A DNA stretch of 64,000 bases, taken from the human T2T-CHM13v2.0 reference genome, Homo sapiens. Shown one piece after another: positions 23,561 through 48,785 of the stretch. Position numbers and translations under genes: made by a program. Numbering within the stretch: the stretch's first letter is position 1; the number at the start of each line of letters is the position of its first letter. The notes under the pieces were generated by a model. It was not told the DNA's origin and did not search any database. It saw only the letters and a program-made list of their open reading frames with translations. The stretch lies in NCBI RefSeq assembly GCF_009914755.1, contig NC_060927.1, one strand, 5' to 3'.

Positions 23561-24756
23561 ATACTGATATACTATAACTTCAAATCCTCCTCTCCTTTCT
23601 ATATATTAGTGCCTAGAAAAACACACTGTCTATTCTTCCCTCCTTCTCTAAATTCAGTGTCTTTCACAAGTTTTTGTATATGTGGCTACTCTGGTGTGCA
23701 AACAAAAAAAAAAAAGAAAAAAACATTTTGTAAATCACGAGAAGAAAAAACTTACACCATGATCATGTGTGAGTACATGTGCACACACATACACATGCAG
23801 GCACATACACATTTCATGAAAATATACTTAATGCCATTAAGAATTGGTATTCTATTCTAATCTATGCTCTTTTATTTCTTTCTTTTCAAAAATAATGGTT
23901 GTGACTCACCAAAGTGACTTTATGACTCACCCATGGGTGTCAATCACAGTTTGAAAAATACTTCTAAATCTCTCCTTGCGTTAAGAAAGATTATTAGAGG
24001 GTTGTGAATCTGCATCTCGTTGTCTAGCCCCTCATAGACTTTTTTTTTAATTTTACTTAGGTATTATGCTATTTTACTACTTTCAGGGGCATTATAAAAA
24101 TCAGTCTCATGACAAGAAATAACTAGTGTTGTTGAAGATATGGGAAAAGGGAACCCTTGTACAGTTTGGTGACAACGTAAATTGGTATAGCCATTATGGA
24201 AAACAATATGAAGTTCCTCAAAAAACTTAAACATAGAGCTACCAGATGATCCACGAGTTTCACTTCTGGGTATAGGTCTAAAGGAATTAAGTTACTATTT
24301 TGAAGAGGTATCTGCACATGCCCATGTTCATTACAGTATTGTTCACAATAGACGAGATATAGGAACGATCTTAGTGTCCATCAGTGAATGAATTTTTAAA
24401 TGTAGTATAATTACACAGTAAAATATTATTCAAACAGGTTCATCCATGCTGCCATTTGCAACAACATGGATGAACCTGGAAAGAATTACGCTAAGTAAAA
24501 TAACTCAAAAAGAGAAAGAAAAACTATGACATCACTTATATGTGGAATCTTAAAAAAAAAAAACAGTCAAACTCACAGAAACAGAGTAAAATGATGGTTA
24601 CCAATGGTGCATGGGGTAGATGAGGAGATGTTAGTCAAAGAGTCCAAACTTTCAGTTTCTGAGGATCTAATGTTTAATATGGTGGCTACAGTTAACACTA
24701 TAGTTAACCATCAAACAACAGAAATTTGAACCGTGTGGGTTTATTTATGCATGGAA

Positions 24757-24983
24757 TTTTTTTTTTTTTTTTTTTTTTTTTGCGACGGAGTCTCCCTCTG
24801 TCGCCCAGGCTGGAGTGCAGTGGCGCGATCTCAGCTCACTGCAACCTCCACCTCCTGGGCTCAAGCTATTCTCCTGCCTCATCCTCCTGAGTAGCTGGGA
24901 CTACAGGCGCCTGCCATCATGCCCGGCTAGTTTTTTGTATTTTTAGTAGAGATGGGGTTTCATCATGTTGGACAGGCTGGTCT
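24757..24983 (-). mobile_element. 5'-truncated AluS with A25 tail (3' part of the U5/Alu chimera)
   Basis: Minus strand reads agaccagcctgtccaacatgatgaaacccc...gagactccgtcgc(A)25; about 90 nt of the Alu 5' end is absent. Confidence 0.93.
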
Positions 24984-25003
24984 AATTTTTAACACTCACA
25001 ATT

Positions 25004-25118
25004 TAGCCTCGTGAAACACGAGGCCTCAGAAATTGGATAAAGACTCATAACTGTTCCTCCCCATGGAAATCTTTAATAAAAGGCGAAAGATTTACATGAT
25101 CTGAAGAGAAACAAGAGT
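25004..25118 (-). pseudogene. RNU5: U5 snRNA retro-pseudogene, essentially full length
   Basis: Minus strand actcttgtttctcttcagatcatgtaaatctttcgccttttattaaagatttccatggggaggaacagttatgagtctttatccaatttctgaggcctcgtgtttcacgaggcta aligns to human U5 (loop 1 GCCTTTTAy, Sm-site remnant, 3' stem-loop). No upstream PSE context; it lies inside a TSD. Confidence 0.93.
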
Positions 25119-25626
25119 TATGCATGGATTTTTTAAAATAAATATACCAATTTTTTTTGGAGATTTACAACAGTTTGAAGAAACTTGCAGGGTAACCATG
25201 ACCCCTGAGACAATAAGACTAACCCCTGCTCTTCTTCCTCCTCCTCAGCCTACTCAATGTGAAGACAATGAGGATGAAGATCCTCATGATGATCAACTTC
25301 CACTTAGTGAATAATAAATATATATATATATATTATCTTTCTTATGGTTTTTCTTAATAACATTTCCTTTTCTCTACTTACTTTATGTAAGAATATGGTA
25401 AAATATTCTAATAACCAAAATACATATAACAATACATATAAGAAAAGAATACATATCAGAAAAAAATATGTGTGAACTGACTGTTCACATTATCTGTAAA
25501 TCTTCTGGTCAACAGTAGCCTATTAGTGGTTAAGTTGTGGGGGAGTCAAATGTTATATACAGATTTTGATTTGTGAGTTCCCCTAACCCCTAAGTTGCTC
25601 TGGAGTCCACTGTACTGTGTTGTATA

Positions 25627-47157: not shown

Positions 47158-47771
47158 AAACCTAAAGATGTGAATAGAATAGAAAATTAGAATAGAATAG
47201 AACAGAACAAAATATTTTTAGAGTATTACATAAACTTTAGTTTGACTTTAGTTGATAAAGCAGGGGCAAGGTTTGAGAGGATTGACTCTAATTTTGAAAA
47301 AGGTTCTACTGTGGGTAAAATGCTATCAAACATCATCACATGCTTCAGAGAAAGCACAGTGAAAGGAAAAGTCAAGTGATATGCCAAACTTCATTGTTGT
47401 CGTATTTTCTTTAATTGCCATAGCTGCTCCCAGCCTTCACAAACCACCACCCAGATCAGTCAGCAGCCAACAAAATCAAATCAATACCCTCAACCAGCAA
47501 AAAGATTATCATTCCCAGAAGGCTCAGATGTATCGTTAGCATTTTTTAGCCATAAAGCATTTTTAATTAAGGAATGCACATTTTCTTTTCACACATAATG
47601 CTATTGCACATTTAATAGACTACAATATAGTATAGACATAACTGTTATATGCACTGAGAATCCAAAAAATTCATGTGACTTGCTTTATGCAATATTCTCT
47701 TTATTGTAGTTATCTGAAAGCAAACCTGAAATATCTCTGAGGTATACCTATATAAGGATAAAAATACAGGA

Positions 47772-48069
47772 GGACAGGAATGGTGGCTCACACCTGTAAC
47801 CCCAGCACTTTGGGAGGCCGAGGCAGGAGGATTGCTTGAGCCCAGGAGTTTGAGACCAGCCTGGGCAACATGGTAAGACCTGTCTCTCCAAAAAATTTAA
47901 AATATTATCCGGGCATAATGGTGCATGCCTATGGTCTCAGCTACTCGGAAGGCTGAAGCAGGAGGATCACTTGATCCCAGGAGTTTGAGGCTGCAGTGAA
48001 CTGTGATCGCCCCACTACACTTCAGCTTGAGCAACAGAGCAAAACCTTGTCTCATTAAAAAAAAAAAAC
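47772..48069 (+). mobile_element. AluJ
   Basis: ggattgcttgagcccaggagtttgagaccagcctgggcaacat...ggaggatcacttgatcccaggagtttgaggctgcagtga plus poly(A). Confidence 0.93.
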
Positions 48070-48252
48070 ATGAAAATACATATTTCTTCATAAATATGAT
48101 CTTTAATAGTTTATTCTTTAAGCACATGGAATTTATTTTACTATAATGTAATGCAAAGATTGAATTTTACCGTTTTCTGTGTTGCTTATGGTTCACATAC
48201 CATTTGCTGAAAACCCCTACATTACTTTTCTAATTAAAAATATTACACCTGA

Positions 48253-48565
48253 GGCCAGGTGTGGTGGCCCATGTCTGTGATCCCAGCATTTTGGGAAGCT
48301 GAAGCAGGAGGAATGCTTGACGCTAGGAGTTCAAAACCAGCTTGAGCAAAATGATGAGATCCCACTTCTAGAGAAATTTTAAAAACTAGCCAGGTATTGT
48401 GGCATGCGCCTGGAGTCTCAACTATTTGGGAGGCTGAAATGGGAGGATCACTTGAGCCCAAGAGGCTAAGGCTGCAGTGAGCTGTGATCTCACCACTGCA
48501 CTTCTGTCTGAAAGATGAAGTGAGACCCTTTCTCCAAAAATACACCCAACCAACCAAACAAAAAA
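48253..48565 (+). mobile_element. AluJ
   Basis: ggccaggtgtggtggc...gggaggatcacttgagcccaagaggctaaggctgcagtgagctgtgatc; degenerate tail. Confidence 0.92.
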
Positions 48566-48785
48566 CATCCCACAACCTTATATACTAAATCCATATAAAA
48601 TTGAGTGTGTCTTAAAATGTTAATCCAGTTCCCTATGTGTCTATCATTGACTCAATGCCACACTATCTTAATAACTATCACTTTATTGTAAACCTTGACA
48701 AGAGCAAGCCTCCTCCCACAAAATTGCATCATATTTTTTTCTTTCAAAATTGTATCAGGTGTTCCTGGACTTTTGCACTTTTATT

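What the first reader, a model, noticed from the sequence alone, without database searches (positions are those of the whole stretch)
24096..48785. A ~15.8 kb inversion (28005-43797) bounded by two inverted Tigger1 transposons, readable from swapped flanks
Seen in sequence: (1) The L1MA/MB on + stops at '...ctgtgttgtaTA' (25626) against Tigger1(-). Its expected continuation, 'TActtcagatttgctaagacagtggat...aaagctgaaatataaaaaa', is not on the far side of that Tigger1. It lies on the - strand at 43797-43601, against the other Tigger1(+). The recalled consensus across this join is ctgtattgtaTActtgaaatttgctaagagagtagat. (2) The 15-mer before this L1's 5' end (aaaaatcagtctcat, 24096-24110) matches 13/15 the 15-mer after its tail on the opposite strand (aataatcagcctcat, reverse complement of 43588-43602). 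The two TSD copies are therefore 19.5 kb apart and inverted. (3) Reciprocally, the old L1ME starting at 28005 on + (taagaaaaaactttcaaaacaagac) appears to have its upstream part at 47751 onward on the - strand; this match is more degenerate. Reverse-complementing 28005-43797 restores both L1s, each with one Tigger1 at a TA. Inference: an ancient inversion made by ectopic recombination between the inverted Tigger1 copies, or by transposase cuts at their inner ends. Mammalian inversions are usually attributed to Alu, L1 or segmental duplications, so a DNA-transposon case with both breakpoints resolved is unusual.
Basis: partly seen in the sequence, partly recalled or inferred. Interest (0 to 1): 0.88.

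Follow-up and report, generated by a model that had tools for sequence, protein, structure and literature searches.

The report
Ancient inversion between two Tigger1 fossils
A 15.8 kb piece of human chromosome 3 was flipped long ago by an exchange between two oppositely oriented copies of a dead DNA transposon, a neat but mechanistically ordinary, gene-free rearrangement.

Summary
Two pogo/Tigger-type elements lie in opposite orientation: T1 at 25627-28004 (-) and T2 at 43798-47750 (+). An L1 that stops against T1 continues on the opposite strand against T2. Joining 24111-24698, 25614-25626 and rc(43603-43795) gives a sequence that aligns across the joins to all 5 informative genomic L1 copies of 7 fetched (4 ungapped, 1 with a 1-nt offset). 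Its 15-nt target-site duplication (13/15) sits 19.5 kb apart and inverted. The older L1 is also restored, less sharply: one ORF2 alignment chain crosses the join at residues 155/156.

New here: a central ~1.1 kb of T1 and T2 shares derived substitutions and a private deletion. There they form a clade (aLRT 99.7/UFBoot 100), but not in the flanks. This is a gene-conversion tract, so the two copies did recombine.

Best reading: ectopic homologous recombination between the inverted copies, after about a quarter of their decay. A one-step hybrid-element insertion is not excluded. No outgroup genomes were available. This is a new member of a known kind (compare Galileo in Drosophila). No gene is affected, so interest is modest.

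The parts
24096..24110 (+). Target-site duplication of the split L1, 5' copy
   Evidence: 13 of 15 identical to rc(43588-43602)
24111..24698 (+). Split L1, body (end of ORF2 and start of the 3' UTR)
   Evidence: tblastn/nhmmer to in-window L1 ORF2; aligns to other genomic L1 copies
24699..25613 (.). Nested TA-flanked insertion inside the L1, carrying an Alu and the annotated U5 pseudogene. Not part of the inversion; removed for the restoration
   Evidence: Removing it gives ungapped alignment to 4 other L1 copies across 24698|25614. The name 'Tigger2-like' is recalled only
25614..25626 (+). 13 nt of the split L1, ending in the TA against T1
25627..28004 (-). Tigger1-type copy T1, near full length (2378 nt)
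   Evidence: 73-78% identical over its full length to genomic copies; DDE_1 domain in its frame 26743-27054; TA on both sides
26260..27310 (-). Gene-conversion tract in T1 (consensus ~650-1750; core ~26405-27169)
28005..43797 (.). Inverted segment, 15,793 nt between the inner ends of the two copies. The true crossover lies somewhere inside the copies
   Evidence: Both L1 elements are restored by flipping it
28007..29000 (+).
   Evidence: Scores 84 and 101 against shuffle maxima of 47 and 45; aligns from its first base to the in-window L1
43588..43602 (-). Target-site duplication of the split L1, 3' copy
43603..43797 (-). 3' tail of the split L1, ending in its A-rich tail
43798..47750 (+). Tigger1-type copy T2, interrupted by L1 pieces at 45204-45346 and 45615-~47157
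   Evidence: blastn to T1 at 75-78%
44474..47190 (+). Gene-conversion tract in T2 (the span includes the two later L1 insertions; core 44614-45544)
47751..48785 (-). Older L1, upstream ORF2 part, with Alus at about 47773-48076 and 48252-48560
   Evidence: Piece 48561-48785 scores 57 against a shuffle maximum of 43; chain; the wrong orientation gives nothing

Best explanation
Two Tigger1-type (pogo) DNA transposons inserted independently at TA sites about 16-20 kb apart and in opposite orientation. One landed in the 3' UTR of an L1 and the other in ORF2 of an older L1. Later, when each copy had accumulated roughly a quarter of its present decay, the two copies paired and underwent homologous recombination. 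A crossover inside the elements flipped everything between them, and the associated heteroduplex repair left a ~1.1 kb gene-conversion tract in the middle of both copies. The inversion was fixed and is now a neutral, gene-free fossil.

Shown: the inversion itself, the swapped L1 halves and TSD, and the conversion tract. Inferred: that the tract and the crossover belong to the same event, that the two insertions were independent, and the date.
For: 1. Topology. The restored L1 is contiguous in 5 of 5 informative copies (7 examined) and against an in-window L1. The TSD matches 13/15 and is inverted. The older L1 gives one ORF2 chain, residues 18-402 of 441, crossing the join at 155/156. DNA chains cross the join ungapped against 2 strong references and 1 weak one.

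2. Homologous exchange between the copies.
- T1 and T2 share 58 derived non-CpG substitutions, against at most 32 and 27 for either copy with 24 other copies. This ranks 1 of 325 pairs. Sixteen are private to the pair, against a maximum of 8 and a median of 2 for other pairs.
- The ratio d12/(d1+d2) is the lowest of all pairs in 9 overlapping windows across consensus ~600-1800, and is ordinary in the flanks.
- In the central columns the split {T1,T2}|rest has aLRT 99.7 and UFBoot 100 with branch length 0.036. In the flanks the two are not sisters.
- A shared 19-24-nt deletion is seen in 0 of 25 other copies. A 21-mer across that deletion occurs in the 3.1 Gb genome only at T1 and T2 at 1 mismatch or fewer.
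- T1 is the best genome-wide match of T2's centre (82%) but is absent from the 39 best matches of T2's 5' flank.

3. The junctions are clean, as recombination inside the repeats predicts. The L1 join is base-exact once one TA is removed.

4. Precedent: Galileo inversions in Drosophila buzzatii arose by ectopic recombination (PMC2775673, abstract and section 10).
Against: - A crossover alone creates no shared ancestry, so the tract could be a separate non-crossover conversion before or after an inversion made by another route.
- Chimerism of the two copies, the criterion used for Galileo, cannot be tested without the parental copies.
- At the inferred time the copies were already about 7% diverged (twice 0.036), which makes homologous crossover inefficient.
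- Two near-full-length copies within 20 kb is itself somewhat unlikely, and a one-copy origin would explain it for free.
- No outgroup genome was available, so the ancestral orientation and the date are inferred from a single genome.
- The older-L1 join is only resolved to about 35 nt.
Confidence: 0.68

Rival explanations
1. One-step transposase-mediated inversion (hybrid-element insertion, also called sister-chromatid or aberrant transposition). A single Tigger1 sat in one L1. After replication, the transposase paired the 5' end of the copy on one chromatid with the 3' end of the copy on the sister. It then inserted this hybrid into the TA in the other L1. That inverts the interval and leaves a complete copy at each end. 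The central conversion tract would be a later, unrelated exchange between the resulting inverted repeats.
For: The end product is the same as observed: opposite orientation, complete ends, TA at all four junctions, and no gain or loss. PMC2775673 (section 10) states that this model differs from ectopic recombination only in that the copies are identical rather than chimeric. PMC8225341 (passage) lists such rearrangements for Ac/Ds, P, impala and Sleeping Beauty; the last two are Tc1/mariner relatives of pogo. The model also explains why two near-full-length copies lie only 16 kb apart.
Against: Outside the central tract T1 and T2 are no closer than random pairs. Flank ratios are mid-rank, the two are not sisters in the flank tree, and they agree at 67 of 104 variable flank sites, a level that 35% of other pairs reach. 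The mother copy would therefore have had to be brand new. An extra later conversion event is still needed to explain the tract. No such event is documented for Tigger/pogo in mammals, as far as the searches show.
Confidence: 0.18
2. Double-strand breaks at or near the inner ends of the two copies (transposase cuts or chance breaks). The fragment was then flipped and rejoined by end joining, without homologous exchange.
For: It gives the same order of flanks. A clinical inversion with a Tigger1 at an MMEJ breakpoint is listed in PMC11610578 (one table row seen).
Against: End joining usually leaves small deletions, duplications or footprints, yet the L1 join is base-exact apart from the expected TA. 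Two independent breaks exactly at element ends are improbable unless the transposase made them. This model does not explain the conversion tract.
Confidence: 0.07
3. No inversion: the pieces are unrelated L1 fragments, an L1 5' inversion from twin priming, or an assembly error.
For: L1 fragments are everywhere, and L1 5' inversions are common (2,273 cases in PMC1914374, passage).
Against: The join is base-exact at both nested-insertion sites in 5 of 5 informative references. The TSD is inverted and 19.5 kb apart. A second, independent L1 is restored by the same flip. Twin priming puts the inverted piece directly beside the rest and keeps the TSD direct. Repeats only 76-78% identical cannot mislead an assembler.
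Confidence: 0.03

Closest known systems
Galileo-mediated inversions 2j, 2q7 and 2z3 of Drosophila buzzatii (Delprat et al. 2009, PMC2775673; abstract and section 10 read)
   Same: A cut-and-paste DNA transposon sits at both breakpoints in opposite orientation. The flanks and TSDs are exchanged, nothing is gained or lost, and the rearrangement is attributed to ectopic recombination. The same rival, hybrid-element insertion, is discussed there.
   Different: The Galileo inversions are young and polymorphic, the non-inverted chromosome is available, and chimerism was shown directly with 7-bp TSDs. Here the event is ancient and fixed in the one genome seen. The TSD is the uninformative TA, so the swapped halves of host L1 elements play the role of exchanged TSDs. 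Chimerism cannot be tested; a conversion tract is seen instead.
Inverted-repeat (NAHR) inversions of the human genome (for example Aguado et al. 2014, PMC3961182, abstract in search listing only; L1/Alu-mediated human-chimpanzee inversions, recalled)
   Same: A segment bounded by inverted homologous repeats, with breakpoints inside the repeats.
   Different: Those cases involve young, highly identical repeats (segmental duplications, L1, Alu) and are often recurrent. Here the substrate is a 2.4 kb DNA-transposon fossil, and the copies are now only 76-78% identical.
Alternative transposition of Ac/Ds, P, impala and Sleeping Beauty (PMC8225341, passages)
   Same: It yields inversions flanked by inverted transposon copies with TSDs at the new junction.
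   Different: It requires active transposase and gives identical copies at the time of the event. Nothing here shows transposase involvement.

Membership tests
Inversion by ectopic recombination between inverted transposon copies | Two homologous copies in opposite orientation, one at each breakpoint | tested here: met
   T1 25627-28004 (-) and T2 43798-47750 (+), collinear at 75-78% identity
Inversion by ectopic recombination between inverted transposon copies | Exchanged flanks or TSDs | tested here: met
   The TA TSDs are uninformative, but the two halves of each host L1 are swapped between the copies, and the L1's own TSD is inverted
Inversion by ectopic recombination between inverted transposon copies | No deletion or duplication at the junctions | tested here: met
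   The L1 join is base-exact in 4 references and off by 1 nt in a fifth. The older-L1 join is only resolved to about 35 nt
Inversion by ectopic recombination between inverted transposon copies | Both copies chimeric relative to the parental copies | not testable with these tools
   No non-inverted chromosome or outgroup was available. The star-like family gives no diagnostic sites. A conversion tract shows exchange but not chimerism
Inversion by ectopic recombination between inverted transposon copies | Non-inverted arrangement in an outgroup or other haplotype | not testable with these tools
   No mammalian genome other than the window's own is held
Tigger1 (pogo group, Tc1/mariner superfamily) | pogo-type transposase: DDE_1 with CENP-B_N and HTH_Tnp_Tc5 DNA-binding domains | tested here: met
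   DDE_1 in T1's frame 26743-27054 (E 1.2e-15). All three domains are in the 631-aa open frame of its 78% identical relative L010
Tigger1 (pogo group, Tc1/mariner superfamily) | TA target-site duplication and short terminal inverted repeats | tested here: met
   TA at 25625-26, 28005-06, 43796-97 and 47751-52. The ends of each copy are imperfect inverted repeats, read by eye
Tigger1 (pogo group, Tc1/mariner superfamily) | Assignment to subfamily Tigger1 rather than another Tigger | not testable with these tools
   No Dfam/Repbase library was on hand, so the name is recalled. T1 matches many ~2.3 kb genomic copies end to end
Hybrid-element insertion (aberrant transposition) | The two copies identical at the time of the event | tested here: inconclusive
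   The flanks show no excess shared ancestry. That excludes an aged mother copy but not a brand-new one

The most novel reading that the evidence does not exclude
The inversion was made in one step by the Tigger1 transposase itself. This would be a hybrid-element (sister-chromatid) insertion from a single freshly inserted copy. It would be the first fossil footprint of aberrant transposition by a pogo-family element reshaping a mammalian chromosome. The central conversion tract would then be a later exchange between the inverted repeats it created.
Probability: 0.15. Interest if true: 0.6.

Novelty: new member of a known kind. Interest (0 to 1): 0.35.

Why it matters
This is a clean, fully resolved example of a DNA-transposon fossil serving as the substrate for a chromosomal inversion in the human lineage. 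Such events are usually credited to Alu, L1 or segmental duplications.

It also shows two things about method. First, an ancient inversion can be recognised and its junctions resolved from one genome alone, by using nested repeats as natural markers. Second, a conversion tract in the flanking repeats can give a relative date for the exchange.

The segment holds no annotated gene, and the event is old and presumably neutral. Its value is therefore as a worked example and as a template for a genome-wide screen, not as a functional discovery.

Tried and rejected
- The two Tiggers as duplicates of one aged copy: rejected. They are 75-78% identical overall, like random pairs, and the flanks show no excess sharing.
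- A Tigger1 subfamily explaining the shared central variants: not supported. The deletion is in 0 of 25 other copies. The junction 21-mer is unique to T1 and T2 at 1 mismatch or fewer. Of the 42 two-mismatch hits only 8 were inspected, and none resembled the junction. The remaining 34 were not checked, and only 40 of about 4,000-5,800 candidates are scored per genome search.
- Finding other copies of the older L1 by DNA search: failed. One search found only the query itself. One search was swamped by a high-copy repeat at the query's 3' end. The older-L1 join therefore rests on two in-window L1 references and one weak external one.
- tblastn with the young L1's ORF2 end was too insensitive for the older L1.
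- The piece beside the older-L1 join is not significant on its own.
- Subfamily-diagnostic sites as a test of chimerism: no power, because the variable sites are mostly recurrent transitions.
- Twin priming, unrelated fragments and misassembly: rejected (see rival explanations).
- Literature: no paper describing an evolutionary inversion between Tigger copies turned up in the listings (11 papers with both words; passages of 2 read). Subscription journals are not covered.
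Full report
**What is there**

The window holds two copies of a 2.4 kb pogo/Tigger-type DNA transposon in opposite orientation. T1 is at 25627-28004 on the - strand. T2 is at 43798-47750 on the + strand and is interrupted by two later L1 insertions, at 45204-45346 and 45615-~47157. blastn aligns the two collinearly at 75-78% identity and finds no third copy in the window.

All four junctions carry TA. T1's own frame 26743-27054 matches Pfam DDE_1 (E 1.2e-15). Its 78% identical relative L010 on contig 2 has a 631-aa open frame with DDE_1, CENP-B_N and HTH_Tnp_Tc5. 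The subfamily name Tigger1, like the names L1MA/MB and L1ME, is recalled. No repeat library was available to check them.

**The younger L1 is split exactly as claimed**

On the + strand an L1 runs from 24111 to 24698. A 915-nt TA-flanked insertion (24699-25613) interrupts it there. The L1 then resumes for 13 nt (25614-25626) and stops against T1. Its tail lies on the - strand from 43797 down to 43603, against T2.

I joined these pieces in a script, dropping one TA, and aligned the result to seven other genomic copies found with the tail as query.
- Five copies span both joins. Four do so in a single ungapped block (L002, L004, L006, L007) and one has a 1-nt offset (L008).
- The other two (L003, L005) are truncated beyond the join and are uninformative.
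- An independent L1 3' end inside the window, rc(48786-49500), gives the same collinear alignment.

The 15-mer before the L1's 5' end matches the reverse complement of the 15-mer after its tail at 13 of 15 positions. Random 15-mer pairs from the window reach that in 51 of 2,000,000 draws. A 40x40-nt scan of random window pairs reaches it in 1 of 300. So one L1 insertion now has its two target-site copies 19.5 kb apart and inverted.

**The older L1 is restored too, with less resolution**

I used the ORF2 C-terminal 441 residues of the young L1 nested in T2 as an internal reference. The restored order was rc(48561-48785), rc(48077-48251), rc(47753-47772), 28007-28266, 28420-29000, with the Alus removed.
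- A frameshift-tolerant alignment of this order gives one chain, residues 18-402, that passes the inversion join at residues 155/156.
- DNA chains against two in-window L1 references cross the join in ungapped blocks, with scores of 158 and 167. One external copy does so weakly. The other six references did not reach that region.

Taken singly, the pieces are uneven:
- The outer - strand piece scores 57 against a shuffle maximum of 43.
- The + strand pieces score 84 and 101 against shuffle maxima of 47 and 45.
- The 195 nt next to the join score 38 against a shuffle maximum of 41, which is not significant.
- The whole left part is marginal at DNA level (46 against 42; 57 against 56) and gives nothing in the wrong orientation.
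- Piecewise mapping leaves about 35 nt unaccounted for.

DNA searches for other copies of this old L1 failed.

**What rules out the trivial readings**

Twin priming would put the inverted piece beside the rest of the L1 and keep a direct TSD. Unrelated fragments would not meet at the same base in five references. Repeats 76-78% identical cannot cause a misassembly. A single flip of 28005-43797 restores two independent elements, which is the simplest account.

**New evidence on mechanism: a conversion tract**

I aligned T1 and T2 with 25 other near-full-length genomic copies. These came from 29 fetched loci; four were dropped for length (L024, L036, L037, L038). T1 and T2 are 14.3% and 15.3% from the majority consensus.

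I then removed one member of a duplicated pair (L019) and 78 inferred CpG columns.
- T1 and T2 share 58 derived substitutions, against 13-32 for T1 and 7-27 for T2 with the 24 others.
- This is rank 1 of 325 pairs.
- Sixteen of the shared changes are private to the pair, against a maximum of 8 and a median of 2 for other pairs.

The excess is confined to the middle of the element.
- The ratio d12/(d1+d2) is the lowest of all pairs in 9 overlapping 300-nt windows between consensus ~600 and ~1800, plus one window at rank 7.
- It is mid-rank in both flanks.
- In an IQ-TREE analysis of columns 650-1750, the split {T1,T2}|rest has aLRT 99.7 and UFBoot 100, with a branch of 0.036 and terminal branches of 0.109 and 0.104. 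In the flank columns the two are not sisters.

Three further checks agree.
- Both copies carry the same deletion junction at consensus ~812-836, which is absent from all 25 others.
- A 21-mer across that junction occurs in the 3.1 Gb genome only at T1 and T2 with 1 mismatch or fewer. There were 42 two-mismatch hits against 29 for the reversed control. Eight were inspected and none resembled the junction.
- T1 is the best non-self match of T2's centre (82%, ahead of 39 others at 76-80%), but is not among the 39 best matches of T2's 5' flank. Each genome search scores only 40 of several thousand candidates.

**Reading the tract**

A crossover by itself creates no shared ancestry. A shared branch limited to about 1.1 kb is therefore the mark of gene conversion between the two copies. 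It shows that these inverted repeats did engage in homologous recombination. A crossover outcome of such an event gives exactly the observed inversion.

If tract and crossover are one event, it happened after about 0.036/(0.036+0.107), or roughly 25%, of the copies' decay, when they were about 7% diverged. Giordano et al. (PMC1914374, passages) place Tigger1 near the divergence of the eutherian orders. Under a uniform clock this would put the exchange at about three-quarters of that age. That is inference only.

The two L1 insertions inside T2's tract are absent from T1, so they most likely came later.

**The rival that remains**

Delprat et al. (PMC2775673, section 10) point out that hybrid-element insertion from two copies at the same site gives a product "strikingly similar" to ectopic recombination. 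The only difference is that the copies are identical rather than chimeric. That applies here.

The flanks show no extra relatedness between T1 and T2. They agree at 67 of 104 variable flank sites, a level reached by 35% of other pairs. This excludes an aged mother copy but not a fresh one. Both models need three events.

My estimates are:
- recombination between independent copies: about 0.68
- hybrid-element insertion: about 0.18
- break-and-rejoin at the inner ends: about 0.07
- no inversion at all: about 0.03

A non-inverted outgroup would settle the first two. Two Tigger copies would mean recombination; one copy and an empty TA would mean aberrant transposition.

**Novelty and interest**

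The kind is known: inverted-repeat inversions in humans, and DNA-transposon inversions by ectopic recombination in Drosophila. I found no paper on an evolutionary inversion between Tigger copies in the searches. One clinical inversion lists a Tigger1 at an MMEJ breakpoint (PMC11610578, one table row).

The segment carries no annotated gene. The result is a tidy, well-resolved new member of a known kind, with a conversion tract as a useful extra.

Noticed in passing
window 24699-25613: A 915-nt TA-flanked insertion nested in the split L1, 12 nt upstream of the Tigger1 site. It contains an Alu (about 24746-24985) and the annotated U5 snRNA pseudogene (25005-25120). Its ends look like a Tigger2-type non-autonomous element, by recall only.
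   Followed up: partly
L010 (G000 contig 2: 233034737-233037070), frame L010:1658-3550 on the - strand: A Tigger1-type copy only 7.4% from the family consensus, with a 631-aa stop-free frame carrying all three pogo transposase domains. It is probably the domesticated gene TIGD1; the name is recalled.
   Followed up: partly
L016 and L019 (G000 contig 14: 18.20 and 18.16 Mb): Two Tigger1 copies 99.4% identical and 40 kb apart, evidently part of a recent segmental duplication. They served as a positive control for the shared-variant test.
   Followed up: no
window 45204-45346 and 45615-47157: Two separate L1 insertions inside T2, both absent from T1. One is a short 3'-end fragment. The other is a young L1 whose last 441 ORF2 codons are still open.
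   Followed up: partly
window 29043-29202: A ~160-nt stretch that matches at least 40 genomic loci at 87-90% identity. It is a younger high-copy repeat inside the older L1. Its family was not identified.
   Followed up: no
window 48786-49500 (- strand): Another L1 3' end whose tail abuts the 5'-most recognisable piece of the older L1. It is unclear whether it interrupts that L1 or merely borders it.
   Followed up: no
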